From IMG/VR virus record IMGVR_UViG_3300037422_000298: a DNA stretch of 64,000 nucleotides. One strand, given 5' to 3'. Position 1 is the stretch's first letter, and each line of letters opens with the position of its first letter. A program made the position numbers and the translations under genes. Source of the stretch: a virus. Lineage: Duplodnaviria; Caudoviricetes. The notes under the pieces are model-generated. The model saw only the letters and a program-made list of their open reading frames with translations. It did no database searches and was not told where the DNA came from. This document shows positions 2,465 through 64,000 of the stretch, piece by piece.

Positions 2465-4658
2465 AAACTAAACCTCGCAAGCGCGTCACGTGCTTTTCCT
2501 GTAGCCGTCGGCGAATCAAGTACGCTGACGGCCTGTGTGAGACCTGTCATCGTGTTGCCGTCAACGTCGGCCGCCGTCTTGCGATCATCTTCGATGGCGC
2601 GCGATGGCACGTTCGGTCGATTCGGCTGATCGAACACGATCTGGATCTCGATGAGAAGATCTATCGATGCGACAAGCCGATCAGCAACGATCACCGCTCG
2701 ATCGAAGACGCAGTCGCTTCAGCAAAGAGGTACCAACGTGTCGCGTGACTTCAAGCCGATCGATCCCAACAGCGCCCCATCGACACGCAACGCTCGAACG
2801 AAAGATCCAGGAGAAGCGTGAACCGCTACATCATGAAGCCGCCGATGCGCCTCGACGCGCACGGCCACTCGCTCGAACGCTTCATCGAACGCTGGTGGCC
2901 GTGGACACCCACAGAGCTGCGCCTACGTAGCCCGAACAAGAAGGCTGCAGCGCTGCAGCCGCGACTCGCGGAGCTGAAGATGGCGGTCGCTTCGCGTGCG
3001 TACCACGTCGAGAACATCCCTGACGAAGATCAGAGCATCTGGGCATGGACGGTCTGTGCCGGGCCCAACCAAGGCCGCACGGCGTTGATGGTCGTGTCGC
3101 AAGACGGCACAGTGCGAACCGTGTTGCCGCCAGAAGCGAAACGTCCCGCGAACCGTCGGAGGTCGTCGTGATAAAGAAGGTCTACGAGATCGTTACCTTC
3201 GAAGATGCCGGGTACTGGATGCTGCTCGAAGACGGCATCGGGATGGCCAAGAGCAAGTCACGGAACGCGCTCAAGCGCATCCGTGATGCACTGCAAACGG
3301 CGCAAGAGACCGGCCTGATCGGTTTGACCGTCGAGATCGAGGGCGTGAAACGCGGCATCGTGCAAGCGATCAGCGACCGCGCTGACTTGATCGTTCGGCG
3401 TACGGGCGTCCTGCAGACTGACAATCTCGAAGTCTGGCCAGTGCATGCATGTCGTCTCGTCGAGCCCGACAAGATCGACACGCCGACGCCGTGGAACGAT
3501 CCAGCAATTGGCGTCATTCCGGCTATCAAGTTGCTCGAACGTGTATTGGCGTGCGGCATCGATACGATGGGGCACGAACTTGAAACCGTCGCCGACGACA
3601 TCAAGAAGTTTCTCAAGGCACGAGAGGACGCACAGCCTACGCCATGAAGACCAACCAAGATCAAGAACATGTCGACGAAGAGGCGCCCACGCGCACGGTG
3701 CCGTGTAGCATCCATCCGCTGCATCGCGTGAAAGTTCGCACCGACGGCTCGCGTTCGGGCTGCGTGATGTGCGAAGACGCAATCGCTGACCTGACTCGAA
3801 AGGACGGACGATGACCACTGACTACCGTCGAGCAATGACTGCACTCGCGCTTGAACTACCACAAGAAGTTCATCGGCACATCGCAGATCTGTTCGAGCCA
3901 CTGATCGCCGAACACGAGACGAAAGCGATGTCTGTTCTGCAGCCGTGGGTCATGAAGCTCCCGCTTCGCGCGCAGGGCACACTCCTCACTGGCTTTCGTG
4001 GTTGCGATCTCGCACCGAAGAATCCTGTCACGATCGACGAGAGAAACGGCTGCTCGACGGGCGAAGACACCGTCCCGCGTCAGCTCGTCGCGTACTTGCG
4101 TTTCCTGACGCTCGTAGCTGCGGATCCGCGCGAGATCGACGTCCCCGGCGCGTGGTTTCAATCCAAGCCACCGGAGAAGTGGAAGCCGTCGCAGCTCTCG
4201 CACTATCCACTGCACTGGTACGGCCACCTCATGCACTGCTTCGAGGTCGTTGCCTACCTGCGGCCGATCGACGACGAGCACACCGATCGCGCGATTGGTA
4301 TCTACACGCGGCTCGTGCGCGCGCTGCATCTGAACCCTGAGACGAAGGCGCAGATGCTCGAACGCCTGACCGAAGACCGCATCGCGAAGGGCGACGTCGT
4401 CTCGTGAAGGACGAGAAGAAGGCTGCGCTCGAAGCGAATGGCTGGAAGGTCGGCGACGCTGCGCAGTTCTTGGAGATGTCCGAGGCCGAGAAGCAAGCGA
4501 GCCGTCTCATCCACAAGTACGGCCGCGACGGTGCGCTCAAGGCCGTCAAGCAGAACGTCAAGAAGGCCGTCAGCGAGGCCCAGGAAGAATTCTGGGAAGC
4601 CGTTGGCGACCTGATCGAAGAGACCTGCGAACGCCCCGAACAGGAGAACGTCTCGTGA
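2461..4658 (+). CDS. Run of small hypothetical genes (2461-2748, 2818-3171, 3168-3647, 3644-3814, 3811-4407, 4404-4658)
   Basis: Overlapping stop/start junctions (ATGA/GTGA); consistent codon usage. Confidence 0.55.
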
Positions 4659-5353
4659 CCAAGCTCATTCTCGCGCTCGACGTCCCGAGCTACGACGACG
4701 CGATGCAATTCGTCGAGTCGATCGAAGGCAATGTACACCTCGACTGGGTCAAGGTCGGCCTGGAGCTGTTCATCTCCGACGGTCAGCGCGTGATGGATGC
4801 AATGTCGAAAGCCGGGTTCAACATCATGCTCGATCTGAAGCTGCACGACATCCCGGAGACCGTCGCTCGCGCGACGGCGCGCGCAGCAGACCTTGGTGCA
4901 GACATGCTGACGATTCATGCCGCGGGCGGCCCGGCGATGATCGCAGCGGCGAAGAAAGCTGCGGGTGACACCAAGATCCTCGCGGTGACGGTTCTGACGT
5001 CGCTCGATGAAGACGACCTGGTCAAGATCGGTCACAGCCCGACGCCGCACAAGACGCTCGTACGCGACCTGGTTCTCCGGCGACTCCGACTGGCCGAAGA
5101 CAACGGTGCCGACGGCGTCGTCTGCTCGCCGCTCGAAGTTCAGACCCTCAAGATGAACGTGATCCGCGGGATGTTGTTCGTGACGCCTGGGATCCGTCCA
5201 TCGGGCGGCGACACGGGCGATCAGAAGCGCGTCGCCACGCCAACGGGTGCCCGCGAAGCGGGCGCGAGCTTCATCGTTGTCGGGCGGCCGATTCGTGACG
5301 CGAAAGACCGGGTCGCGGCCGTAAAGGGCATCCTGGCGGAGCTGACCACGTGA
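4655..5353 (+). CDS. pyrF: Orotidine-5'-phosphate decarboxylase
   Basis: LILALD, KVGLELF, catalytic DLKLHDIPETV, VTPGIRP, DQKRVATP, IVVGRPI. Confidence 0.97.
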   Translation: MTKLILALDVPSYDDAMQFVESIEGNVHLDWVKVGLELFISDGQRVMDAMSKAGFNIMLDLKLHDIPETVARATARAADLGADMLTIHAAGGPAMIAAAKKAAGDTKILAVTVLTSLDEDDLVKIGHSPTPHKTLVRDLVLRRLRLAEDNGADGVVCSPLEVQTLKMNVIRGMLFVTPGIRPSGGDTGDQKRVATPTGAREAGASFIVVGRPIRDAKDRVAAVKGILAELTT

Positions 5354-6245
5354 TGACGCTCAGGAAGCTCCTCGACCAGATCGTCGACGACGGCATCAAG
5401 GCCTGTAGCGAGTCGTACAAGGACGACGCGAAGAAGCGCGAGGGCGCGATTGCAGGCTTCGAGGCATGCCGCAACAAGTCCGTGTTCGAGCTGCGACAGA
5501 TACTAGGTGTGGCGAGCAACGCTGCAGACGTGGCACGCGCCGTCGACCGCGAGAACTACTGGTACCTGCGCTGCTTCCACGCCGAGGTCGAGTGGGTCTG
5601 CAACGTCGTATCGGCGTGCCTGCAGAATCAAGGGCTCGATCCCATCGTCACGCCGATGCGCGGCTACTTGAAGGCTGCCGAGATCGTCGGCGTCGACGGC
5701 GACACGACACTCAAAGAGTTCATCGAACGTCGACAAAACTGATGACAAGCGAACGCCACAACACGATCTGGTCGCTCGAAGTTGCCGAGCGGCGCTTTTT
5801 GCGCGCGCACGGTTGGACGCTCGAACCGAACCGCGGTTGGATCCCGCCTGCGAACTTTCCATTCAAGCGTCGAGGTGCGTACTCACGCGGTCACGCCGTG
5901 AATGCGCAGAAGCAGCTTCTGTATAACCCGATGTTTGGCGGCGATCGCCTGGAGCAGCTGTAGGGGAGAACGATGACGTTTCAAGTACGACGCAACACGG
6001 CCGACGGAATCCTCGACGAAGTCGCTCTCGGTGGCGCGATCAAGATGGAGACGCTGCAGGAGTTGCTCAAGCTACTCGGCGAGAAGACGGATTACTTGTT
6101 CCACATCGCCGTCGAGATTCACACGCCGATGATGCTCAAGACGATCGACAACGAAGGCGACGCGCTCGACACGATCAGTCGGCTGCGCGCCGCTCCTGCG
6201 AAGAGCATCAAGCCTGCACCGAAGAAGTCGTCGCGAAAGAAGTGA
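5350..6245 (+). CDS. Three hypothetical genes (5350-5742, 5742-5963, 5973-6245)
   Basis: Coupled ORFs; GGGGAG RBS before 5973. Confidence 0.6.
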
Positions 6246-6265
6246 TCTCTCTTGCGACAACGCTC

Positions 6266-6295
6266 TTGACAAGTCGATCGTGAATCGTCTACGAC
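6266..6295 (+). promoter_or_regulatory. Possible sigma70-type promoter for the RAMP-like gene
   Basis: TTGACA (6266) then 18 nt then TACGAC, in an intergenic gap. Confidence 0.35.
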
Positions 6296-6356
6296 CATAC
6301 TTTCCGCGATGTCACTAGGGGCATCGAGAACAACGAGCAGGGAGAACGAAGAGCAC

Positions 6357-7166
6357 ATGCGTACGCAGCAACAGCATCAGAGCAACGGAAACGGACACGT
6401 CCCCACGCGCGGTGACGTCATGAAGCGCGGGCGCGCAGCACTCGTCGACACCGACGAAGACGCGCCGCCCAAGCGGCGCGGGCGCCCGCCGAAGATGACG
6501 CCGTCGCCGGAAGTGATCGAGCTGCCCGCGGCGAAGGGCAGGAAGGGCAAGGCTGCCAAGGGTGCCGACAAGGGCGAGCTGTCGATCCCGGAGCTGGAGA
6601 CGGCCGAGATCACGTTCACGGTTCGCGGCCTCACGTCGCTGATCGTCCACCGCTTCGGCGAGAAGTCGCGCAAGCAGATGGAAGACAACCAGCAGGGCGT
6701 CGCGCGTCACAAGAAGGCGCCCAAGGTTCCCGAAGACGAATTCCGCAGCTCGCTCTACGTGATCGACGCGAAGAAGGGCATCTACGGCTTTCCGGCGTCG
6801 GGCTTCAAGAAGGCGATGGTCTCGGCGTGTCGCTACGCCGAAGGCGTCACGATGACGAGGATGCTCGGCGCGTTCCACATCATCGGCGATCTGCTGCCGA
6901 TCAAGGGTCCGCCGCCCAAGATGCGCACCGACGTCGTGCGCGTCGGCAAGTTCGGTTCGAAGACCTCGGACATCCGCTACCGCGGCGAGTTCACGGACTG
7001 GAGCGTCGACGTCAAGATCCTCTACAACGCCAGGGTTGTGAACAAGCAGGTGCTCGCTCACCTACTCCACCTCGCAGGCTTCTCCGTCGGCATCGGCGAG
7101 TGGCGTCCCGAGAAGTCGGGACAGTTCGGCATGTTCGAGCTGGCGAACAAGTCGGTCGGTAACTAG
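6357..7166 (+). CDS. Solo RAMP/Cas7-like protein (Vipr-like effector of the adjacent repeat array)
   Basis: TVRGLTSLIVH first strand, YGFPASGFKKAMVSA helix, RYRGEFTDW, C-terminal G-rich loop AGFSVGIGEWRPEKSGQFGMF; disordered basic N-terminus; GGAG RBS before ATG 6357. Confidence 0.8.
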   Translation: MRTQQQHQSNGNGHVPTRGDVMKRGRAALVDTDEDAPPKRRGRPPKMTPSPEVIELPAAKGRKGKAAKGADKGELSIPELETAEITFTVRGLTSLIVHRFGEKSRKQMEDNQQGVARHKKAPKVPEDEFRSSLYVIDAKKGIYGFPASGFKKAMVSACRYAEGVTMTRMLGAFHIIGDLLPIKGPPPKMRTDVVRVGKFGSKTSDIRYRGEFTDWSVDVKILYNARVVNKQVLAHLLHLAGFSVGIGEWRPEKSGQFGMFELANKSVGN

Positions 7167-7182
7167 TACTTCGTCGACGAGA

Positions 7183-7214
7183 AACGCCGTGATCGCAGCA
7201 GCGATCACGGCGTT
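7183..7214 (+). terminator. Perfect 14-bp hairpin between the RAMP gene and the array (terminator or processing site); contains the GATCGC-N4-GCGATC motif
   Basis: AACGCCGTGATCGC-AGCA-GCGATCACGGCGTT followed by a pyrimidine-rich tract. Confidence 0.6.
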
Positions 7215-7279
7215 CGTGTTCGTTCTCTGAAAACCGTTGTTCCATCGTCGCGCAAGCAAGCGCGACGACGTCATGGTGA

Positions 7280-9810
7280 GGCAGTCAAGGTGCGGCGCTG
7301 CAGGGCTCGGCGTATCAGGGTCTGGCTCTGTAGGGTCCGGCAACGGTATGGTCGCGCACGGCAGTCCACGTACGGCACGGCGTTGTGTGTTTCGGCGTCG
7401 CAAGCTACGGCAGTCCAGGTCCGTTGCGGCTTCGTTCGTCGCGGCGCGGAAAGGTCGCGCTCGGCAGTCTCGGAATGTCAGTGCAGGTCTGGGTCAGGCC
7501 GCGTTTGGCCCGGCTGCGTTTGGCCCGTCAAGGTGCTGCAGGGCAGTCATGGTTCGGTGCTGCATCGCACTGCTTGGTGTCGTCGGGCTCGGTCCGACGC
7601 GTCGAGGTTAGGCAGTCTTGGTAGGGCTCGACGTGGTCCGTTCGCGCAAGGATCGTTCTGGCTTGGCGCGGTTTCGCAGTCTCGGTCGGGTGAGTCGCCG
7701 CTTGGTGCCGTTGGGCATCGCGCGGTCAGGCACGTCGAGGCAGTCATCGTTTGGTGAATCAGCGCTTGGTTCGTTGAGGCATCGTGCGGCATCGCAGTCA
7801 GGGAATCGCTGGGCAACGCTGGTCCAGGCAACGCACCGCTCGGCATCGCCGTCGAGGTTTGGCGCGTAATGGTTCGTCAAGGCTACGCATGTTTGGGTTG
7901 GGCCGTCTCGGCATGTTTGGATCCGGCTAGTCAGTGTACGGCTAGGCGCCGCGCGGTATGGAGAGGCAGTCAGGGTCTCGGCGCGGCAAGTCAGTGTACG
8001 GCTAGGCGCCGCGCGGTATGGAGAGGCAGTCAGGGTCTCGGCGCGGCAAGTCAGTGTACGGCTAGGCGCCGCGCGGTATGGAGAGGCAGTCAGGGTCTCG
8101 GCGCGGCAGTGCTGCGCCAGGTAGCGCATGTTCTGGCCGGGCTGTCAGGGTTTCGCATCGCATCGCAGTGCGCGATACGGCAACGTCCGTTTCGGCGGTG
8201 CGTGGTAGGGCAGTCTGGTTGCGGCAGCGTCTGTTCAGTCAAGGCATGTTGTCGTTCGGCAGTCAGGGCAAGTTCAGATCCGGCGTTGCTCGGCTCGGCG
8301 TGCGCCCGTTTCGTCACGGCCAGGTGCGGTTGGGCCGTCGTGTCGAGGCATCGCTACGTCCGTTCCGTCAGGGCGCGGCACGTCGGGGCCGTCCAGGTTC
8401 GGCGCGTCAGTGCTGGGTCCGACTTTGCGGGGCAGTGTCCGGCGGGGCATGACAGTCGAGGACAGGCTGGTCACGGTTGGTTACGGTCGTGCCTGGTTTG
8501 GCAGTCATGGTTTGGTTCGGTACCGCTGGTCTTAGTTGGTCATGCCCGGTCTCGACGTGGTTCGGCAGTCGCGTCTCGGTATCGGCAGTCTTGGTAGGTC
8601 AGCGTCGGTCTTGGCAGCGTTCGGTGTGATCGGGTTCGTTACGGCAGTCTGGGTCCGGCGAGGTTTGTCAACGCAGTGCACGGCAACGTACGTCTCGGTG
8701 GGGCAGTCAAGGCACCGCATCGCGGGTCTAGTTGCGTCTCGGTTCGTTTCATCTCGGCAAGGCATGGCCGTCTTGGCAAGGCATCGCCCGTTGCGGCGCC
8801 GTCCGGCCAGTTCTGGTTTGGTAGTGCGTCTTCATGGCAGTCGTGGCTTGTTCCGGCGCGGCCCGTTGTGGTGTTTCATTGCTTGGTAGGGCAGTCGCGG
8901 TTCGTTTCGGCAGCGCGCGTCTGCGTCCGGCATTTGCTCGGTTGGTCGCGGCAGCGGTATGGCCGTCGTGGTCCGTCGGCGTTTGTTCGGGCTAGTTATC
9001 GTCTCGCGCGGCTCGGCAGTTTCGTCTGGGATCGGTTCGGCCTGCTGGGGCAGCGCGTGGCATCGCATCGCATGGCCGTCTTGGTTTCGCACGTCAAGGC
9101 TCGACAGGTTCCGGCTAGGCGCCGTACGGTGCGGCCGTCTAGTCACGGTTGCGCTGGTCGCGGCAGTTTTCGGTTGGTCGCGGTAGTGCATCGTCCGGCA
9201 TCGGCGCGGCAGTCCCGTCGGGGCGTCGTCTCGCTTCGCAAGGCAAGGTCAGGCGAGGACTCGTTTGGCGAGGCAGTCATCGCCAGGTTCGTCGAGGCAG
9301 TGCGAGGCATGGATCGGTTCGGTGGAGTTCGGCGCGGCAGTCGCGGTAGCGCGGGGAAGTGCCCCGCTAGGCAAGGCGTCGCTCGGCGCGGTCAGGCAGT
9401 CCCGGCGCGTCACGCTTTGGCAGCGCTTGGCGGGGTACTGTGTGTCGAGGCAGGGCCGTCTGGGTTAGGTCCGGCGTGTCGCGGTTCGGTTCTTCACGCG
9501 AGGGTGCGGTACGGCATCGCAGTCTTGGATCGTCTCGGCATGGCCGGTTCCGGCAGAGCAGTTCACGGCTAGGTACGACGCGGCAGTCGGTCATGGTCAG
9601 GTGAGGATTGCATCGCAGTGCGCGGCGCCGCCGGGCGTGGCTGTCTTGGTCAGGCGAGGCTCGGTCTCGTGCGTCGCGGCGAGGTTTGGCAGTCTCGGCG
9701 CGGTGGCGTACGGCTCGACAAGGTTCGGCAAGGCCCTGCAGGGCAGTCATGGTTAGGTCCGTCGGGGCGTGATCCCGTGCGTCGCGGTCCGGCACGGCAG
9801 GCATGGCAAG
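7280..9810 (+). ncRNA. Array of ~42 putative guide-RNA units: GGCAGTC separator + NN + n x (GGY-like triplet + NN)
   Basis: Separators (GGCAGTC, GGCCGTC, CGCAGTC, GGCTGTC variants) at 7280, 7360, 7409, 7463, 7542, 7611 ... 9688, 9742; 31 of 41 spacings are 5n+4 (49/54/59/64/69/79); no credible protein in any frame. Confidence 0.85.
7929..8108 (+). repeat. Exact 60-bp tandem triplication inside the array
   Basis: AGTCAGTGTACGGCTAGG...GCGCGGCA x3. Confidence 0.97.
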
Positions 9811-9839
9811 TCGAGAGTGACTTGTGCTAGAGTTGATCG

Positions 9840-10379
9840 ATGGCGCGCGCAGCAACAAGGCAGTCTCGATCGCGGCAGCGATCTACGCATTGGACGTATC
9901 ACTTCAAGGCCGTCGAGGGCAGCCGGTACACCGATCAGGATGCACAGCGTATCGGTCCCGAGTTGACGCGTATCGCGCAACGCGATGGTGAAATTCGCCC
10001 ACAAGCCGTCGTCGACGAAGCACGCTCGCGGCGCTCGCCGTTTCACCGACATTTCCAATGGGACATCCAGAAGGCCGCCGAACAACACTGGCTCGACACT
10101 GCTGGACGGTTGATCCGCGCGATCAAGATCGAGGTCGTCAGCGGACCACAGCGTGCACCCAAGGAAGTCCGTGCGTTCGTCAAGATCGATCGCGCGACCG
10201 GTTATCGTCCGACCATTGAAGTGTTTCAGCGCGACGACTACCGCAACGCGGTGCTCTCGCGTGCACTCGAAGAGCTGGAAGTCTGGAAGAAGCGCTACGA
10301 GAACTTCGTCGACTTCAGCGAAATCTTCGGCGACGTCGCGCCGATCATTGTACAGGCTCAACAGCGGCTGCGAGCGTAG
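9840..10379 (+). CDS. Conserved phage protein, probable accessory of the RAMP/array locus
   Basis: IRPQAVVDEARSRRSPFHRHFQWDIQKAAEQHWLDTAGRLIRAI motif; immediately downstream of the array. Confidence 0.7.
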   Translation: MARAATRQSRSRQRSTHWTYHFKAVEGSRYTDQDAQRIGPELTRIAQRDGEIRPQAVVDEARSRRSPFHRHFQWDIQKAAEQHWLDTAGRLIRAIKIEVVSGPQRAPKEVRAFVKIDRATGYRPTIEVFQRDDYRNAVLSRALEELEVWKKRYENFVDFSEIFGDVAPIIVQAQQRLRA

Positions 10380-10382
10380 CCA

Positions 10383-12150
10383 GTGGAGCCGCGGAGCGGC
10401 CGTTGGCGTCTCGCGTTGCAGAGTGAGCTGTGCGAGTGTTTCGACTGTGCGAGTCCGACGTGTGACGAGCGCTTGTGGATCGCGTACAGCGTGCTCGATC
10501 GTTTCATCTGCGCGTTGTGCGGCCATCAGGCGAGCGATCGACGTACGAACATCACGGCGTGCAAACGCCGTTGTGGGTACGTGTTCCAAGAAGATCTTCC
10601 GCGCGCTACGGTGGTCCAGCGATGAGCGTTTCCAAGTGTCCACACGGCATCTTCACGCACAGCATCTCGAACCGCTGCCCGATTTGCTTCGGCGTCGACG
10701 CGTACAACAGCGACGCGATTCCGATCGTCGGCCACGGCAACGGTTGGTTGCTGCACAAAGGCGACTTGGTCTGTCCTGAGTGTGGCGGTCCGCGTACGGC
10801 AGGCTGGGGTGCGTACGACAACAGCAAGCGCAGTACGCCACCCGACCCGAAGAATCCGAACGACTGGCCGACGACGTGTTACGCCTGCACGAGCGGCAAT
10901 TCGAAGGCTGCGATCTTGAAACGTACTGCGCACGAAGCTCAGCGCGGCGTTCGCAAGACACCCGGAGCAAAGTGATGGGACGTCGAACCTACGAAGCCAA
11001 GATGATGATCGTCACGCCCGACATGGACACCGGGATGATCGTCTTCGCTAACGAACACGTGCACCGTGACATCGACGAGCTGGGCTCGCGCATGCTGGAA
11101 GACATCCTCGGCAAGCAGCAGCCACCCGATGCAGGCGTCTGGATCTGGGAAGGCAAGCAGGTTTGGTCATCAGGCTACCGCGGTCCTGACGGTGACTACG
11201 ATACCGACGTCGACTACCGCGACGGCACGTGGCGTCGTCCTACGGAGACCGAGATCGCACAGCTCGTCCGCGGCGAATCACCGTGGCCGAGGCCGCCAGC
11301 GGAGGACGCTGATGACTGAAGCAGAACGCGATCTGTTGATGATGGCCAACTACTACGAACCGGACCTCCCTCAAGCGTTGGCCAAAGCGATGGCGAGTGT
11401 CGACGTAGATCAGTTGCGAGCCCTCGCGCTCAAGTACATCAACGCGACCAAGGTGCTCGTCGACGGTGTAGACACCGTGCTGAGGCCGCGATCGTGAAGA
11501 CGTACCGCGCGATGCGCGTCACCCGAGCACCGATCTCGCCACCACTCTGCGCACAACACTTCAAAGAGACCGACGATGTGCTTCTCAAGGCGGATGACGT
11601 TGAAGTCGAAGAGCTAGACGATCCCTACTGCATCATGTGTCAGACAGCTGCTGCGCCCGACCGCACGTGCGGGAGCTGTGGCAAACCGCTCCACCCAAAC
11701 TGGCATGCGGTGTATTGCTCGAACGAGTGCGCGATCGCTGACTTGTGATAAGGTCCGCGGCTCGCATGAGCCCGGGATCTACAGTCGCAGCAGCGATCGA
11801 CGCAGATTGCGAAGCCTTGGAGCTTCTCGCCGTCGAGGTCCAGCTCAACGGCGCGACATCGCTCGCTAGCCAAGAGCTACTTGTGATACTGTCGGCGCAT
11901 GCTCGCCGCCGTGGAATTGCCCGAGAAACTCTGTGTGGTCCGCTGGACCGGACGTGTACGGCTGCACGTGGAAGTGCTGACCGTCTGCGGTATGAAGATG
12001 GACGCTGCTGATGGTGTCGTGCAGGTCCCAGACTTCATCTTCGACGGCCGACCTGTACTCAGCATCAGCGACTTCGGTGGCAAGGGACGTCGCCCGCTCA
12101 AAATCTGCGACGACTGCAAGAACGCAGTCGTCGCAGCGATCAAGGGCTAG
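10383..12150 (+). CDS. Run of small hypothetical/Zn-finger genes (10383-10625, 10622-10975, 10975-11319, 11312-11497, 11494-11748, 11899-12150)
   Basis: Coupled ORFs with CxxC motifs. Confidence 0.5.
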
Positions 12151-12596
12151 AAGCGCCGAGCGCGACTGATCCCGAAGCCGATCGCGGCGATCCCTACAGC
12201 GATCGCGACGCCGATTCCGATCTTGGTTCCGGTCGACAGTCCCGCCTGTCCGCTCGTCACCCCCGCGCTCGTGTTGTTGACGTCCGCGACTACAGGAATG
12301 ATCTTGTCGGCAGCGCCACCCTGTTGAACAGCGAGTAGCCCGACTTCGGTGCGATCGTCAGCCGTCGCGATCGACTGTAAGAGCGTTCGAACGTCTTCGT
12401 TCGATGTCCCGTTGGCCGCTTTCGCGATGCGGTCCGCGAGCTGCGTCTTCTCGTCTTCCGTGAGGCCAAATAGATCAATGCCGCGCACACCGTTCACGCG
12501 GAATCGCGGATCGACTGGCGGCAGGATGTTCTCGACGTAGAACGGGACCACGGCGTACGGCCACGGATACGGTGCGCGAGGTTCGAGTGCGATCAT
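12147..12596 (-). CDS. Membrane-anchored virion protein, paralog of 15254-15862
   Basis: FGLTEDEKTQLADRIAKAAN shared with FGALTEDDKNKLAEQVKNAAN; C-terminal TM + RARRF. Confidence 0.7.
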   Translation of the reverse strand: MIALEPRAPYPWPYAVVPFYVENILPPVDPRFRVNGVRGIDLFGLTEDEKTQLADRIAKAANGTSNEDVRTLLQSIATADDRTEVGLLAVQQGGAADKIIPVVADVNNTSAGVTSGQAGLSTGTKIGIGVAIAVGIAAIGFGISRARRF

Positions 12597-13603
12597 ACTG
12601 CGAGCCTTTCTCGTCGCACGTAGCGACGGCCGAATGCACTTGGATCTGGTTTCACCCACGGTGGTGGCGGTTCGTCCATGTAACGCAGGTGCATCTTGGC
12701 CGCCTTATAGGCGAGGTAGATGTCCTCTTCGGAATACCCCTCGTCGACCAGCTGATCGTGGATCTCTTTCTTGGGCACCTCATACGAGAGCGCTTGGGCG
12801 ATGCGGTTGATCAGTCGCTCGTCGACGATGCCGAGACCTCGGCGCTTTCCGAACGGTGCTTGTGCGGCGCGCCTCGCAGCACGCAGCACCAACCAGCTGA
12901 GTCCGACGAGGCCAACGACGGCAACGACGCCGATCGCGATCTTGGCGCCTGCTGACGTATCGGTCGTCAACGCATCTGGCGGCGTGGTCAGCGCGACGGC
13001 TAGCTGCTTGCCTGCGATCACGGCGCCGGGCTGCGTGAAGTGTACGCCATCGCTAGCGCGCCCCGCGACCGCGGTCAACGGTCGTGCATCGATCGTGCGA
13101 TCGGCGCCGAAGACCGTACGCAACGCGTCCAACATGATCGGCGCGCCTTGCGTGTAGCGGGCGTCTTGGTACGTCGGCGGTCCGATCGCGAAGATTTCGA
13201 CGTTACCGAGCTTGTCGCGGTACGCCTGTTTGATGCGCGTCAAGTCTTGAATCGTCCGTGCGATCGCCGCCGACGACACGCCGTTGTCGATGTCGTTGGT
13301 GGCCAACATGATCACGATCTTGGTCGGCCGAAACGCGACATCGTTGGCGATCAAGTTGCTGGCGTCTTCGTTGATGAAAAAGCTGCGAGCCGATCGTCCG
13401 ACACGTGCGTCGATGCGTACAGCTTGCGCCTGTAGATCTTCGAGCAGGTGTGCTGCCATCACCGCGCCCGGCGCCGATGACAACGCGGGCGCGGTACCAC
13501 TCCGGTCGCCCGCGCGAACATCGATGATCGTGGGGCCTGCATCGGGACCTGAGTGCGAGAGGCTGTCACCGAAGATCAAGATGCGTTCGCCTGCGACGTT
13601 CAC
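12593..13603 (-). CDS. SGNH/GDSL esterase with C-terminal TM anchor
   Basis: ILIFGDSLS block I, VGRS block II, LATND block III, SDGVHF block V; TM segment. Confidence 0.85.
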   Translation of the reverse strand: MNVAGERILIFGDSLSHSGPDAGPTIIDVRAGDRSGTAPALSSAPGAVMAAHLLEDLQAQAVRIDARVGRSARSFFINEDASNLIANDVAFRPTKIVIMLATNDIDNGVSSAAIARTIQDLTRIKQAYRDKLGNVEIFAIGPPTYQDARYTQGAPIMLDALRTVFGADRTIDARPLTAVAGRASDGVHFTQPGAVIAGKQLAVALTTPPDALTTDTSAGAKIAIGVVAVVGLVGLSWLVLRAARRAAQAPFGKRRGLGIVDERLINRIAQALSYEVPKKEIHDQLVDEGYSEEDIYLAYKAAKMHLRYMDEPPPPWVKPDPSAFGRRYVRRERLAV

Positions 13604-14550
13604 TCGTCGCTCCAGTCGCCGTCATCCCAGTCACGCCCGAGGAAACGCCCTGGGTGGCGTTTGGCGACGCGCTTGGAGACCTGCCAGGCGCCGAATGCGA
13701 GTCCGAGCAAGCTGCCGACGAGCAGCGTACCGACCAGGAACTGTTTGCCGGAGCTGGTCGGCGGCGCGCCTGGTGTGCCGCAGATCGGCAGGTTCGCGGG
13801 CCACACCGGGCGCATACTCGCGGCGACGATGCTGCCTTCGTAGACGGGATTGCCGAAGAACGTACGAGCACGCTCGATCAGTTGCTTGCCTTCGAACGAC
13901 TCAGGTTTGAAACCGAACGTGCGAAACTGCGTCGTCTTCCAGTGATCGACGCCGGGAATCGGCCCGACCCAATACTTGCCGTTCTTCGCTTCGCTCAGGA
14001 TGCGGTTCATCGGAACGGGGAAAAATTTCTTGAATTCGAGACCGTCCTGATCGTCGGCGCCGTGGTTGATGTTCTCGCTCTTGCCGCTGATCACGAGGTC
14101 CGCGAGCAGCGCAGACAGGATGCTCGGGTCGCGGCTAGTGGCCGCAAAACGACCGGTATTGCGCCCGCCAGGTACGTTGATCTCGCCGTACAGTTTCGTC
14201 GGCTGCGTGAACAGAAGCAGCCCGTTGACGTCTTGCTTGCGCCGCTTGGCTTGGTTGACCGCAACCTCGCCGACAGCGACGCGTTCTTCAGCGGTACCAC
14301 TGCCGACTTCGCTGTGGATGTAGCGCGCGAGCGTGTACATGTTCAGGTCGAGTGCTTTGCCCTTCGGCCAGAACGTCGACGCTTGCAGTTGTTTCTCGGC
14401 GCTCGCGCGCATGGTCTCGGGCGCGCATCGAATCTCGCCGGTTTCATCCGGTTTGCAGCCCGACGTCAGAATCGTCTTGTCGGCAGGGCCGCCGACCATC
14501 GGCGCGAACGTCGGGTGCCACGACGCATAGCAGTCAGGCGTTGCGGCCAT
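13600..14550 (-). CDS. SleB/Hydrolase_2-like cell-wall hydrolase with C-terminal TM anchor
   Basis: YTLARYIHSEVGSGTAEERVAVGEVAVN; TM + basic tail. Confidence 0.6.
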   Translation of the reverse strand: MAATPDCYASWHPTFAPMVGGPADKTILTSGCKPDETGEIRCAPETMRASAEKQLQASTFWPKGKALDLNMYTLARYIHSEVGSGTAEERVAVGEVAVNQAKRRKQDVNGLLLFTQPTKLYGEINVPGGRNTGRFAATSRDPSILSALLADLVISGKSENINHGADDQDGLEFKKFFPVPMNRILSEAKNGKYWVGPIPGVDHWKTTQFRTFGFKPESFEGKQLIERARTFFGNPVYEGSIVAASMRPVWPANLPICGTPGAPPTSSGKQFLVGTLLVGSLLGLAFGAWQVSKRVAKRHPGRFLGRDWDDGDWSDE

Positions 14551-15250
14551 GTCTCACCCTCCGATGATGCTCGCGACGTCCGAGAGCGACTGCGGCGCGC
14601 TTCGCAAGAACCCACGCGAGCCAGCTGAGTCCGGCGAGACCTCCGACGGCGACCGTACCGATCACGATGTTGCGACCGGTCTTGCTTTCGGGCTGCGGCA
14701 CCGTCGCGAGTGGTTGCGGACGATCGCGGAACAGTGGAATACCCAGCTCGCGTGCGGTCGCGACGACTGTTGACGCATAGTTGTCGACAGGTAGCCATGG
14801 CTCGCTGGGAATGCCCGTCCCGAAGCCGAAATCGTTCGAGAAGCCTGTCGATGGTTTCCCGACGGTCTCGGTGATCGCCGGGATCAACGCCGCGGGCACG
14901 CTCAGATCGAAGTGCAGGTGCGGGCCTTCGGACAGGCCCGTGTTGCCAGACACGCCGATCTGTTGTCCCTTCGTCACGCGTTGTCCGCGCGTGACGAGCG
15001 CGCGAGATAGGTGGAGGTAGCGCGAGACGACACTGTCGTCGTGCGTCAACGCGACAAAGATTCCCGCGTCGCTTGTACCCGTCGGGTCGACGTTCCTGAC
15101 CGTACCGTTGGCGACGGCCAAGATCGGCGTGCCGACCGCGAGTGGAATGTCGAGTGCTGGATGGATTCCCGTCGAACGCATGCGCCACCCATCACCAATC
15201 GTCACGTTGACGTTGGTGGGCGCAACACGGCCGAGCGCGAGGTCGATCAT
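14534..15250 (-). CDS. M23-family metallo-endopeptidase with C-terminal TM anchor
   Basis: HPALDIPLAVGTPILAVANGTV, YLHL, GNTGLSEGPHLHF. Confidence 0.92.
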   Translation of the reverse strand: MIDLALGRVAPTNVNVTIGDGWRMRSTGIHPALDIPLAVGTPILAVANGTVRNVDPTGTSDAGIFVALTHDDSVVSRYLHLSRALVTRGQRVTKGQQIGVSGNTGLSEGPHLHFDLSVPAALIPAITETVGKPSTGFSNDFGFGTGIPSEPWLPVDNYASTVVATARELGIPLFRDRPQPLATVPQPESKTGRNIVIGTVAVGGLAGLSWLAWVLAKRAAVALGRREHHRRVRHGRNA

Positions 15251-15862: not shown

Positions 15863-15939
15863 TTGCAGATCCTACACCGAAACAGCCGCTTGATCGCGCG
15901 AGCGATCGCGTTGTAGCGTCCGCCAAAACGGGGGAATCG

Positions 15940-55766: not shown

Positions 55767-55859
55767 GCATCTAGCATCGCATGTTCATTTGACAACGCGC
55801 GCATCCGACGGGTAGCTTGAAAGTGTCGAGATCGCGCGCGCGATCGACGTGGAGCCCAC

Positions 55860-62264: not shown

Positions 62265-64000
62265 GTGGCTGCGATCGAAGAACGTAAGGGCGTGCTGTTG
62301 GGGATCGCTGGTCTCCTCCTCTCGGCAGGCATCATGATCGCGATGGGCTTCCACAAGCCCGTCCGACGACACGCGCGTACGCGGCGCTAACCTGCGATCG
62401 CGCGCGCGATCGTGATACAGTTACCGCGTGTTTCAGGCGTCACGCATGCCGACGTTCGCGACGTCAGTCGGGGTTGCACCGTCGACTACGACGATGCAGC
62501 TTTCTGATGCCTGTGACCCTGTAACGGCGTGCAGTCCTGCGGCGACTGCAATTTGGCGGTCACAGAGAAGCGGCATGCCGATGTTGGTGCCCGCGGCCGT
62601 GCCGCAAGCACCGCCAACGCCGCGACCTGCGCCTGAAGCACTGCCGATGTTCCTACCGGAACCGGAAATCACTCGCGCCCATCCGAGGTTCTATATGCCC
62701 TACGCATCACTCGAAGATCTGCGTTCCGCTGCTGGCCTCGGGATCATCAACGAGTCCGACGCATGGCTGACCGGACGTCCGTACGGCCTGCCGGGGACCG
62801 CCACCGTGCGGTTGATGCAGCGTCCGGGTGGCTATCACAGCCCGAACGGCTACCACTACGACGCCACGATGGTCGGCGGTGGATTCGGCGACGCCGATAC
62901 GCAAGCAATCAACACGACGATGCAGCAGCTCGTCGTCGCGCAGCAAGCACAGCAAGCGCATCTCAAGCGCATCGCGTTCTGGCAGGCCTTGACGGGTGGT
63001 CTCGTCGTCGGCTCGATCGCAGTCGGTACGGTTCTCGGGATCGTCGGCGCTGTTCGTCAGCAGCGTCGTCGTGGAGGTCGGTGATGCTCGGTATCTACGT
63101 CAACGAGATGCAACGCAGTGTCGGCTTCGGCAATGCGGGCGGCTACTACCGAACCCGCATCGTTCCGTACAGACACTTCGCGCCGTACCGCCCCGGCGCG
63201 ATCGCCGTCGATCGCCGCACGCACCTCGGTGACGTTCCCAACGACTTCGAAGCATCAGTCGATCTGCAGTACATCCCCGTTCGACAGGGTTGGTACTACG
63301 GGCAGCCGGTCGACGGTCGCGGGTACCCCGACAGGTCCAATGGGTTCGGTCAAGCGCCACCGACGACACCTACGACGTCCACCGAGCTGGATCGCATTGC
63401 GAAGCTCGAACGCACGCAGACGATCCTTCAAATCGTCTCGACGATTTCGATCGCGGCGATTGCATCACTGACGATCGCCAAGGCCGTCGTCTCCGTTCGA
63501 CGCCGTCGATTCGGGCTCACGGCGGAAGAAGATTGATCGTTATGCCACGACGTAAGATCAAAGGTCAGTTCTGTGAAAAGACGCTCGCGCCCAAGACGGC
63601 GTTCGACAAGCGGAGCTTTCGCTATAAGAAGTCCGGCAAGAGCTGGCTGCTCGTCGGTTGTCCAACAGGCAAGTGGAACGCGAAGACGAACTACTGTCGT
63701 GTTGGGACACGTGCGCACAAACTTCTCGCGGCTCGCCGCGGTACAAGTTGTCCAACCAACGCCAAGCGCGTCGTGAAATAAGGAGATCTGATGCTCACCG
63801 TCAACTACAGCGGTTTTGGTACGACTCTCAGTCCTTCGCAGCAGGCCGCGCAGCCGCGATACACGTGCGCCGAGCGAAACACCAAGGGTCGATGCATGAG
63901 GTGGGTCCAGAGAGCATCAGGGTTTGGATGGGGGTTCGGCGCAGCACTCACCGAAGACGAGATCATCAAGCTCGCGCAAGAAGTCTCCGAGAAGGCGAAT
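62265..64000 (+). CDS. Further small TM/basic virion genes (62265-62390, 62446-63084, 63084-63536, 63542-63781, 63791->64000 truncated)
   Basis: GFG motifs, TM + RRRR tails; AGGAG RBS before 63791. Confidence 0.6.

What the first reader, a model, noticed from the sequence alone, without database searches (positions are those of the whole stretch)
6357..10379. Viral RNA-guided-type system: solo RAMP/Cas7-like gene + 5-nt-periodic guide array + accessory gene, with no cas1/cas2
Seen: a RAMP-like ORF with a C-terminal G-rich loop, a hairpin, then ~42 units separated by GGCAGTC. Inside a unit, a near-constant triplet (GGC/GGT, also CGC, TGC, GTC, GTT) alternates with a variable dinucleotide. Example unit 9688: GGCAGTC tc GGC gc GGT gg CGT ac GGC tc GAC aa GGT tc GGC aa GGC cc TGC ag. 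31 of 41 spacings are exactly 5n+4 nt. Knowledge: Cas7/RAMP proteins polymerise along guide RNA with a fixed nucleotide step. Inference: each subunit grips one triplet and presents the NN bases for target pairing. This matches my recollection of recently described VIPR-type (GGY/NN) phage systems, which I could not verify here. This copy is long and has degenerate linkers.
Basis: partly seen in the sequence, partly recalled or inferred. Interest (0 to 1): 0.96.

Follow-up and report, generated by a model that had tools for sequence, protein, structure and literature searches.

The report
Phage VIPR system, 40-guide array
This is a genuine copy of the recently described phage VIPR system (a small Cas7-like protein, a partner gene and guide RNAs built from five-letter GGY-NN repeats), here with an unusually long array of about 41-43 guides, one of which spells a conserved motif of a widespread prophage gene; it is real and striking but belongs to a family published in 2026.

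Summary
Window 7280-9815 has a strong 5-nt period and no 3-nt period. It parses into 41-43 head-to-tail units, and 32 of 40 spacings are 5n+4. The pentamer logo is G, G, Y, then two near-uniform positions.

The gene at 6357-7166 is a Vipr protein. It matches SUSP1 Vipr (PDB 36pp) by sequence, keeps the residues that hold GGY, and its model has a Csm3/Cas7 fold. The gene at 9840-10379 lies beside vipr in every relative examined, including Gordonia phage ODay, so it is the system's accessory gene. It is unrelated to SUSP1 vap1 and has no recognisable fold.

One guide (9455-9518), read by the published 1-nt-skip rule, matches 24 of 24 guide bases in P63C-family genes. There were at least 81 viral contigs and at least 120 bacterial genomes with matches, and the skipped base is the codon wobble position. 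Eight other guides gave no convincing target.

The unit boundaries fit the preprint's "staggered" arrays, whose vrRNAs overlap by 1 nt. That architecture has not been tested experimentally.

VIPR was described in 2026 bioRxiv preprints, so this is a new member of a known kind. This scan has found VIPR arrays, GGCAGTC-headed ones included, on other DNA before.

The parts
6357..7166 (+). vipr gene (269 aa): a single-RRM RAMP protein with a disordered basic N-terminal extension of about 80 aa
   Evidence: phmmer against PDB 36pp_D 'SUSP1 Vipr protein' gives E 1e-5; the family profile gives E 2.9e-12; hhalign against the SUSP1 gene product gives probability 97.8%. AF2 model pLDDT is 82. Top Foldseek hits are Csm3/Cas7 chains at E 5e-6. 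Matches phrog_4652; more than 550 homologues.
6471..6494 (+). AT-hook-like KRRGRPPK motif in the N-terminal extension of Vipr
   Evidence: Read from the translation. Similar RGRP or GRPRK motifs recur in the extensions of several relatives and are absent from the 195-aa SUSP1 Vipr. A role in DNA binding is inference only.
7077..7130 (+). G-loop of Vipr (GFSVGIGEWRPEKSGQFG)
   Evidence: Aligns with the SUSP1 G-loop GVGDWRP. E248, W249 and R250 correspond to the G1/G2/Y3 contacts D177, W178 and R179. R209 corresponds to thumb R138 and H98 to H17 (residue roles from bioRxiv 10.64898/2026.04.26.720927).
7183..7214 (+). 14-bp hairpin between vipr and the array. Its core is the genome's recurrent palindrome GATCGC-N4-GCGATC. 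It is terminator-like and could also be an operator.
   Evidence: Terminator-like site; RNA fold z-score -3.7 for 7167-7290; the palindrome occurs 19 times in the window against 0.04 expected.
7245..7268 (+). Second 9-bp hairpin in the array leader, 11 nt before the first delimiter
   Evidence: RNA fold. The leader is 91% conserved in L002.
7280..9815 (+). vrRNA array of 41-43 head-to-tail units of 49-80 nt. Each unit reads GTCnn-(GGYnn)m-GGCAG, and neighbouring units share one G.
   Evidence: Period-5 autocorrelation; phase parse with a -1 register shift at every unit; logo and spacing statistics; no Rfam family; same grammar in relatives L002, L006 and L008.
7924..8108 (+). Recent tandem triplication of one 60-nt unit, 99% identical
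   Evidence: Tandem Repeats Finder: period 60, 3.1 copies.
9455..9518 (+). Guide whose 12 NN dinucleotides, read with a 1-nt skip, match the IVALVDEATGYQ motif of P63C-family genes on the opposite strand
   Evidence: The inner 20 bases gave at least 81 exact hits in IMG/VR, and 54 of the 81 also match all 24 bases, in frame, with the skip at the wobble position. The full 24-base pattern hit at least 120 GTDB genomes. The target proteins are PF10546 P63C and phrog_2384. Shuffled guides and skips of 0, 2 or 3 reach at most 19 of 24 on the same loci.
9840..10379 (+). vap-type accessory gene (179 aa, phrog_15946), function unknown
   Evidence: tblastn finds it beside vipr in L002/L003, L005, L006, L007, L008 and Gordonia phage ODay gene 20. 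No Pfam, PDB-sequence or PDB-fold match. Not similar to SUSP1 vap1 (hhalign probability 0.05%). Atlas neighbours are 88-97% viral.
9868..9883 (+). Second copy of the GATCGC-N4-GCGATC palindrome, just past the array and inside the 5' end of vap
   Evidence: Pattern search.

Best explanation
This is a VIPR (Viral Interference Programmable Repeat) locus of an uncultured virus of about 241 kb.

The proposed mechanism is as follows. The array is transcribed on the + strand and cut into RNAs of about 50-80 nt. Vipr protomers polymerise along each RNA, one per pentamer. They sequester the GGY triplets through H98, R209 and the G-loop E248-W249-R250, and they present the NN dinucleotides. The filament then binds double-stranded DNA that reads NN-x-NN-x, and it blocks transcription of rival mobile elements. 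The skipped base usually falls on the codon wobble position.

At least one guide is aimed at the invariant IVALVDEATGYQ motif of P63C-family prophage genes. Neighbouring units share one G: one ends in GGCAG and the next begins with GTCnn. This gives the 5n-1 spacing and matches the preprint's 'staggered' array type.

Shown here: homology and fold of Vipr, the array grammar, synteny of the accessory gene, and the code match for one guide. Inferred from the SUSP1 work: RNA processing, filament assembly and silencing. The role of the accessory protein is unknown.
For: - Vipr homology.
- GGY-contact residues are conserved.
- RAMP fold.
- Period-5 GGY/NN array with unit lengths of 9-15 guide pentamers, within the published 9-16.
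- The same gene-array-gene module and delimiter occur in relatives down to 55% Vipr identity and in cultured actinophages.
- Guide 9455-9518 matches P63C genes 24 of 24 under the 1-nt-skip rule, in frame, in hundreds of records. Seven of the other eight patterns of the same size gave 0 hits in the same collection, so the chance background is about zero.
- The 90%-identical phage L002 keeps this guide's NN bases while four scaffold bases changed.
- There is no self-target in the window.
- Published description of VIPR: bioRxiv 10.64898/2026.04.26.720920 and .720927.
Against: - There are no expression or binding data for this locus.
- Only 1 of 9 guides tested has a convincing target.
- About a quarter of the G1 and G2 positions are not G, and 8 of 40 spacings are off-register, so some units may be decayed.
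- No sigma-70-like promoter was found, and a terminator-like hairpin separates vipr from the array.
- There is no structured 3' tail like that of the characterised type II vrRNAs.
- The staggered architecture was not confirmed experimentally in the preprint.
- The accessory protein has no recognisable DNA-binding or nuclease fold.
Confidence: 0.92

Rival explanations
1. The array is a decaying or non-functional relic. The Vipr gene is intact, but most units no longer work as guides, and the P63C match is the only live guide.
For: Eight of nine tested guides have no clear target. Triplets are degenerate, with 27% non-G at positions 1 and 2, and 8 of 40 spacings are off-register.
Against: The same degree of triplet degeneracy occurs inside the guide that has a perfect 24 of 24 target (triplets TTC and GCG). 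Orthologous units in L002 conserve the NN bases at least as well as the scaffold, with 6% against 10% substitutions. Arrays of 20-45 units persist in several relatives. The searches here demanded exact matches, whereas the preprint accepted 80% or more NN identity.
Confidence: 0.05
2. The array encodes a repetitive Gly/Arg/Ser-rich protein, or is a structural DNA repeat such as an origin, a packaging site or a minisatellite, and is unrelated to the neighbouring RAMP gene.
For: Mechanical ORFs of up to 298 aa run through the array. The region is G-rich with strong GC and AT skew.
Against: The period is 5 and not 3, and the register slips by one base at every unit, so no reading frame is maintained. 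The array always travels with vipr and vap in relatives. One unit matches a foreign gene only under the VIPR skip rule.
Confidence: 0.02
3. It is a degenerate or minimal CRISPR-Cas (type III or type I-like) remnant and not a VIPR system.
For: The best structural matches of the protein among solved structures are Csm3/Cmr/Cas7 subunits.
Against: There is no repeat-spacer array and there are no cas1, cas2, cas10 or other cas genes nearby. By sequence, the only PDB match is SUSP1 Vipr. The protein has a single RRM.
Confidence: 0.01

Closest known systems
VIPR systems with 'staggered' vrRNA arrays (bioRxiv 10.64898/2026.04.26.720920, fig. S18 legend)
   Same: Both have a Vipr protein, an accessory gene and GGY/NN pentamer guides. 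Units lie head to tail, and the end of one marks the start of the next with a 1-nt overlap. Here GGCAG and GTCnn share a G, which gives the 5n-1 spacing.
   Different: The figure and data tables are not held in the library, so identity of delimiter, type number and vap class could not be checked. The preprint did not confirm staggered arrays by sRNA-seq. This array is long: 41-43 units over 2.5 kb.
Type II VIPR of Escherichia phage SUSP1 (Vipr, vap1, four vrRNAs; PDB 36pp)
   Same: The Vipr proteins are homologous, with conserved H, R and (D/E)WR contacts for GGY. Both use GGY/NN pentamers with about 9-16 repeats per guide, target by the 1-nt-skip rule with the skip at the wobble position, and aim at other mobile elements.
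   Different: Each SUSP1 vrRNA carries a structured 3' tail of about 35 nt and stands apart from the others. Here the units are contiguous and have no tail. The accessory proteins are unrelated. This Vipr has an extra basic N-terminal extension of about 80 aa with an AT-hook-like motif. SUSP1 has 4 guides against about 42 here.
CRISPR-Cas type III backbone subunit Csm3/Cmr4 (Cas7 RAMPs)
   Same: Both have an RRM core, a G-loop and a thumb, and both polymerise along a guide RNA with a fixed nucleotide step (Foldseek E 5e-6, TM about 0.5).
   Different: Here there is a single small protein. There are no Cas10, Cas5, Cas6, Cas1 or Cas2 genes and no repeat-spacer array. The step is 5 nt with non-contiguous pairing, against 6 nt with contiguous pairing in type III.
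Gordonia phage ODay genes 19-20 and mycobacteriophages such as Saal and Donkeykong (annotated as hypothetical proteins)
   Same: They carry the same Vipr family (35-37% identity) and the same accessory family. ODay has a GGC-nn pentamer array between the two genes.
   Different: ODay has an array of only about 170 nt, and these are small tailed temperate phages. The window comes from a contig of about 241 kb.

Membership tests
VIPR system | Vipr protein: a small single-RRM RAMP with G-loop and thumb, homologous to characterised Vipr | tested here: met
   PDB 36pp SUSP1 Vipr: E 1e-5 for the single sequence and 2.9e-12 for the profile. hhalign probability 97.8%. tblastn hits the SUSP1 vipr gene itself (H54). 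The model has a RAMP fold.
VIPR system | Residues that hold GGY in the SUSP1 structure (H17, R138, D177, W178, R179) | tested here: met
   They align with H98, R209, E248, W249 and R250. D to E is conservative, and some clade members have D.
VIPR system | vrRNA made of tandem YNNGG/GGYNN pentamers (at least 4, typically 9-16 per guide), with conserved GGY and hypervariable NN | tested here: met
   Period-5 autocorrelation of 0.39. Logo G 73%, G 73%, Y 96%, N, N. Units hold 9-15 guide pentamers.
VIPR system | Minimal locus of vipr plus one accessory (vap) gene, mostly viral, without a CRISPR array or adaptation genes | tested here: met
   The accessory gene is syntenic in 7 loci. No cas Pfam families appear in the flanks of L002, L005, L006, L007 or L008. 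Relatives include cultured phages. The viral nature of the 241-kb source contig rests on PHROG hits, absence of cellular genes and Atlas taxa, so it is moderately supported.
VIPR system | Guides match natural targets by the 1-nt-skip rule (NNxNNx), with the skip at the codon wobble position and targets in mobile elements | tested here: met
   Guide 9455-9518 matches 24 of 24 bases in frame in P63C genes of at least 81 viral contigs and at least 120 genomes. Eight other guides gave no convincing exact match.
VIPR system | vrRNAs are expressed, processed and co-purify with Vipr; the complex represses transcription | not testable with these tools
   This needs sRNA-seq, pull-down and reporter assays.
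Type II VIPR (SUSP1 / P. fulva clade) | Each vrRNA ends in an invariant structured 3' tail (a pseudoknot in the SUSP1 clade) | tested here: not met
   Units are contiguous. Only the heptamer GGCAGTC separates guides, whereas SUSP1 has tails of about 35 nt.
Type II VIPR (SUSP1 / P. fulva clade) | vap1 accessory protein | tested here: not met
   hhalign of the accessory-family profile against SUSP1 vap1 gives probability 0.05%.
VIPR 'staggered array' architecture | Adjacent vrRNAs overlap by 1 nt, so the end of one marks the start of the next | tested here: inconclusive
   The 5n-1 spacing and the shared G in GGCA-G-TC fit the fig. S18 legend. The figure itself and processed RNA ends are not available.
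CRISPR-Cas | Repeat-spacer array plus cas1/cas2 or a multi-subunit effector | tested here: not met
   There are no CRISPR-type repeats and no cas families in the homologous flanks. The only similarity is RAMP fold similarity.

The most novel reading that the evidence does not exclude
The staggered, tail-less array together with its own accessory family (phrog_15946, unrelated to vap1) may form a VIPR subtype whose guide biogenesis and accessory function are still undescribed. Under this reading, the accessory protein or Vipr itself would cut at the shared G of GGCA-G-TC. The 40-plus guides of this giant virus would form a broad-spectrum library aimed at invariant peptide motifs of rival elements, and possibly of host genes. 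The P63C guide alone would recognise prophage genes across many bacterial phyla.
Probability: 0.25. Interest if true: 0.6.

Novelty: new member of a known kind. Interest (0 to 1): 0.45.

Why it matters
VIPR is a very recent discovery, and only the type II form (SUSP1 and P. fulva) has been characterised experimentally.

- This locus is a clean, large example of the untested staggered array form. It shows the exact unit grammar: GTCnn, then (GGYnn)m, then GGCAG, with one shared G between neighbours.
- It shows that the accessory gene of this clade differs from vap1.
- It gives a concrete natural target. A 12-codon invariant motif of P63C-family genes is read through codon positions 1 and 2, so a single guide matches that gene in genomes of many bacterial phyla.
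- It shows that cultured Gordonia and Mycobacterium phages carry the same module, so the staggered form could be tested at the bench.

It does not change what is known about how VIPR works.

Tried and rejected
Nine guides were tested by exact 1-nt-skip pattern scans, and only guide 9455 gave a clear target.
- Guides 7676, 8837, 9743, 9519, 8141, 9337 and 8388 gave 0 hits in IMG/VR.
- Guide 8837 can be read as a Walker-A-like peptide. It also gave 0 hits in the metagenome collection.
- Guide 9743 gave 3 metagenome hits, about the number expected by chance. One lies in a GTPGYMSPEQ kinase motif, so this is a lead only.

Other target searches also gave nothing.
- Scanning all guides with mismatches allowed found nothing above shuffled controls apart from guide 9455. 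The scans covered the window, the related loci, 81 target loci and five complete P63C-bearing viral records.
- No guide is shared with the more distant relatives L005-L008.

The accessory protein could not be assigned a function.
- Pfam, a PDB sequence profile, Foldseek against PDB and VIA-align wide gave nothing informative.
- BFVD and the ESM Atlas returned only uncharacterised viral proteins and one DUF4494-named cluster.

The P63C target family has no PADLOC defence match and no functional literature. Neighbouring genes in one provirus were uninformative.

Rfam found no ribozyme or other family in 6000-10600, so this is not the hammerhead-interspersed array type. No sigma-70-like promoter was found.

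Megablast of 25 kb of the window against GenBank phages found nothing. No whole genome is held for this window. The host could not be identified. The preprint's supplementary tables and figures are not held, so the VIPR type number (I-VII) could not be assigned.
Full report
**1. Observation**

The sequence at 7280-9815 is not ordinary coding or intergenic DNA. Same-base autocorrelation is 0.39 at lag 5 and stays at 0.34-0.40 at all multiples of 5 up to 40. Every other 2.5-kb block of the window gives 0.23-0.26 at lag 5, and lag 3 is not raised inside the array.

Exact GGCAGTC occurs 27 times between 7280 and 9859 and only 6 times in the remaining 61 kb. A Viterbi parse of pentamer phase shows runs of GGYnn pentamers. 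At every delimiter the register shifts by exactly -1.

With degenerate delimiters (GGCCGTC, CGCAGTC, GGCTGTC and others) there are 41-43 units of 49-80 nt. Of 40 spacings, 32 are 4 mod 5.

The logo of 371 pentamers is as follows:
- position 1: G in 73%
- position 2: G in 73%, T in 22%
- position 3: C or T in 96%
- positions 4-5: near uniform

One 60-nt unit is triplicated at 99% identity at 7924-8108.

**2. The protein**

The ORF at 6357-7166 (269 aa) has no Pfam family. It matches phrog_4652 and has more than 550 homologues in metagenomes, all unnamed.

Several results tie it to the characterised Vipr protein:
- Among all PDB sequences its only match is 36pp, 'SUSP1 Vipr protein' (E 1e-5). 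A profile of 26 family members raises this to 2.9e-12.
- tblastn with the C-terminal 71 residues hits the vipr gene of Escherichia phage SUSP1 and its Felixounavirus relatives.
- hhalign against that gene's product gives probability 97.8%.
- In a MAFFT alignment, the SUSP1 residues shown by cryo-EM and mutagenesis to hold GGY are H17, R138, D177, W178 and R179 (bioRxiv 10.64898/2026.04.26.720927). They align with H98, R209, E248, W249 and R250 here. All five positions are invariant or nearly invariant in this clade.
- The AlphaFold model (pLDDT 82, and above 90 over the core) finds Csm3/Cmr/Cas7 subunits as its best solved-structure neighbours (E 5e-6, TM about 0.5).

Residues 1-80 are disordered and basic, and they contain an AT-hook-like KRRGRPPK motif. 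Several relatives have the same kind of motif, and the 195-aa SUSP1 protein lacks it.

**3. The accessory gene**

The ORF at 9840-10379 (179 aa, phrog_15946) lies beside vipr in every related locus fetched, although its position relative to the array varies:
- vipr-array-gene: the window and L002/L003
- vipr-two units-gene-array: L006
- vipr-gene-array: L008
- also present in L005, L007 and Gordonia phage ODay (genes 19 and 20, with an array of about 170 nt of GGCnn pentamers between them)

This synteny makes it the vap of this clade. It is not related to SUSP1 vap1 (hhalign probability 0.05%).

It has no Pfam family, no PDB sequence match and no convincing PDB fold match. Its nearest neighbours in BFVD and the ESM Atlas are uncharacterised viral proteins. 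Its function remains unknown.

**4. Array grammar and relatives**

Relatives with 60% (L006) and 55% (L008) Vipr identity use the same delimiter and the same 5n+4 spacing. The 90%-identical phage L002 has 45 units.

Read in the upstream register, each unit ends with a constant pentamer GGCAG. Read in the downstream register, the next unit starts with a constant GTCnn. The two share one G, so the spacing is 5n-1.

This fits the legend of fig. S18 of the discovery preprint. It describes 'staggered' arrays whose vrRNAs derive from positions overlapping by 1 nt, so that the end of one marks the start of the next. I could not see the figure, so the equivalence is an inference. The preprint states that the hammerhead and single-vrRNA architectures were confirmed by sRNA-seq, but it does not say this for the staggered form.

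No ribozyme or other Rfam family lies in the region.

**5. Evolution of the guides**

Between the window and L002, only 15 units pair up at equal length with 75% or more identity. The arrays differ by whole-unit insertions and deletions, while the flanks are collinear at about 90%.

Within the paired units, substitutions are commonest at the Y position (16%) and lower in the NN positions (3% and 9%). Overall the triplets differ at 10% and the NN positions at 6% (Fisher p = 0.055). The NN bases are therefore hypervariable between guides but not between orthologous guides, as expected if guide identity is under selection.

No guide is shared with the more distant relatives L005-L008.

**6. Test of the targeting code**

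The preprints show that the NN dinucleotides pair with DNA while skipping one base, so the target reads NNxNNx. The skipped base usually falls on the codon wobble position.

I turned nine guides into such patterns and scanned public collections for exact matches. Seven patterns of 20 specified bases gave 0 hits in IMG/VR. This sets the chance background at about zero.

- Every hit lies in the same conserved coding motif on the opposite strand, IVALVDEATGYQ, with the skipped bases at wobble positions.
- 54 of the 81 also match the two outer dinucleotides, giving 24 of 24.
- The full 24-base pattern hit at least 120 species genomes. They span Acidobacteriota, Pseudomonadota, Actinomycetota, Planctomycetota, candidate phyla and others.
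- The target protein carries the P63C domain (PF10546) and belongs to phrog_2384. It has a weak similarity to anti-repressor Ant, no PADLOC defence match and no functional literature.
- On the target loci, shuffled guides and skips of 0, 2 or 3 nt reach at most 19 of 24. These loci had been selected with the 1-skip pattern, so this control is only supportive.
- In L002 the orthologous guide keeps its NN bases, loses one pentamer and has four substitutions in scaffold triplets.

The other guides gave little.
- Guide 9743 gave three metagenome hits, about the chance number. One lies in a Ser/Thr-kinase GTPGYMSPEQ motif, which is a lead only.
- The Walker-A-like guide 8837 had no exact match in either the viral or the metagenome collection.
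- No guide other than 9455 matches five complete P63C-bearing viral records.
- No guide matches the window itself above chance.

**7. Context**

The exact accessory protein is on record on a contig of 241 kb. The window has few PHROG or Pfam hits: OMP decarboxylase, a GDSL-like lipase, and the unknown-function families phrog_2426 and phrog_5906. It has no megablast match in GenBank phages.

Relatives of the module occur in temperate actinophages and in contigs with phage integrases. A viral origin is likely but rests on indirect evidence. Earlier notes of this scan call the genome a giant, possibly tail-less virus. I did not test that.

The palindrome GATCGC-N4-GCGATC occurs 19 times in the window against 0.04 expected. 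One copy forms the core of the hairpin between vipr and the array (7191-7206). Another lies just past the array, inside the 5' end of vap (9868-9883).

**8. Verdict**

All testable defining features of VIPR are met. The features specific to the characterised type II form, a structured 3' tail and vap1, are not met. The locus is best filed as a VIPR system of the staggered-array kind, with its own accessory family.

The mechanism (processing, filament assembly on GGY, non-contiguous pairing, transcriptional silencing) is inferred from the SUSP1 work and was not shown for this locus.

VIPR was published as preprints in April to October 2026, and this scan has already met similar arrays on other DNA, including GGCAGTC-headed arrays and arrays of more than 50 guides. 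The finding is therefore a new member of a known kind. Its particular points of interest are:
- the length of the array
- the explicit grammar of the untested staggered form
- the distinct accessory gene
- a natural target read through an invariant peptide motif

Noticed in passing
window, 19 sites, for example 7191-7206, 9868-9883, 15892-15907, 55830-55845 and 62396-62411: The 16-nt palindrome GATCGC-N4-GCGATC occurs 19 times, all listed on the + strand as the pattern is its own reverse complement. Dinucleotide shuffles expect 0.04. Two copies bracket the vrRNA array. It may be a shared operator or promoter element of this virus.
   Followed up: partly
window 6471-6494 (Vipr residues 39-46): There is an AT-hook-like KRRGRPPK motif in a disordered extension of about 80 aa at the N-terminus of Vipr. 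Similar RGRP or GRPRK motifs recur in some relatives, and SUSP1 Vipr lacks them. It could add non-specific DNA affinity.
   Followed up: partly
window 4655-5353 (+): A full-length orotidine 5'-phosphate decarboxylase (PyrF, PF00215, E 4e-59) is encoded about 1 kb upstream of vipr. It is conserved at the same place in L002-L004. This is an unusual auxiliary metabolic gene for a virus.
   Followed up: no
window 12593-15250 (-); L002 11711-14365: A GDSL-like lipase gene lies two genes from a Peptidase_M23 gene. The M23 family was called by Pfam in L002. This may be a lysis cassette with an esterase, as in phages of hosts with a lipid-rich envelope. The host is not identified.
   Followed up: no
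L010-L089 and L091-L170 (P63C genes), for example L012:1055-2080 and L014:8698-9744: The P63C-family motif IVALVDEATGYQ is conserved at codon positions 1 and 2 in prophage-like genes across many bacterial phyla. The family (phrog_2384) has no known function and no PADLOC match.
   Followed up: partly
L001 4983-6248 (Gordonia phage ODay genes 19-20): Cultured actinophages carry the same vipr-array-vap module, annotated as hypothetical proteins. Examples are ODay, Ecliptus and UmaThurman, and mycobacteriophages Saal and Donkeykong. They offer a tractable system for the staggered-array form.
   Followed up: partly
L007 7650-12050: A relative with 49% Vipr identity has several separate period-5 arrays (about 7650-7950, 9526-9950, 10350-10750 and 11700-12050) interspersed with small genes, one of them upstream of vipr. 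This is a different locus layout from the single long array here.
   Followed up: no
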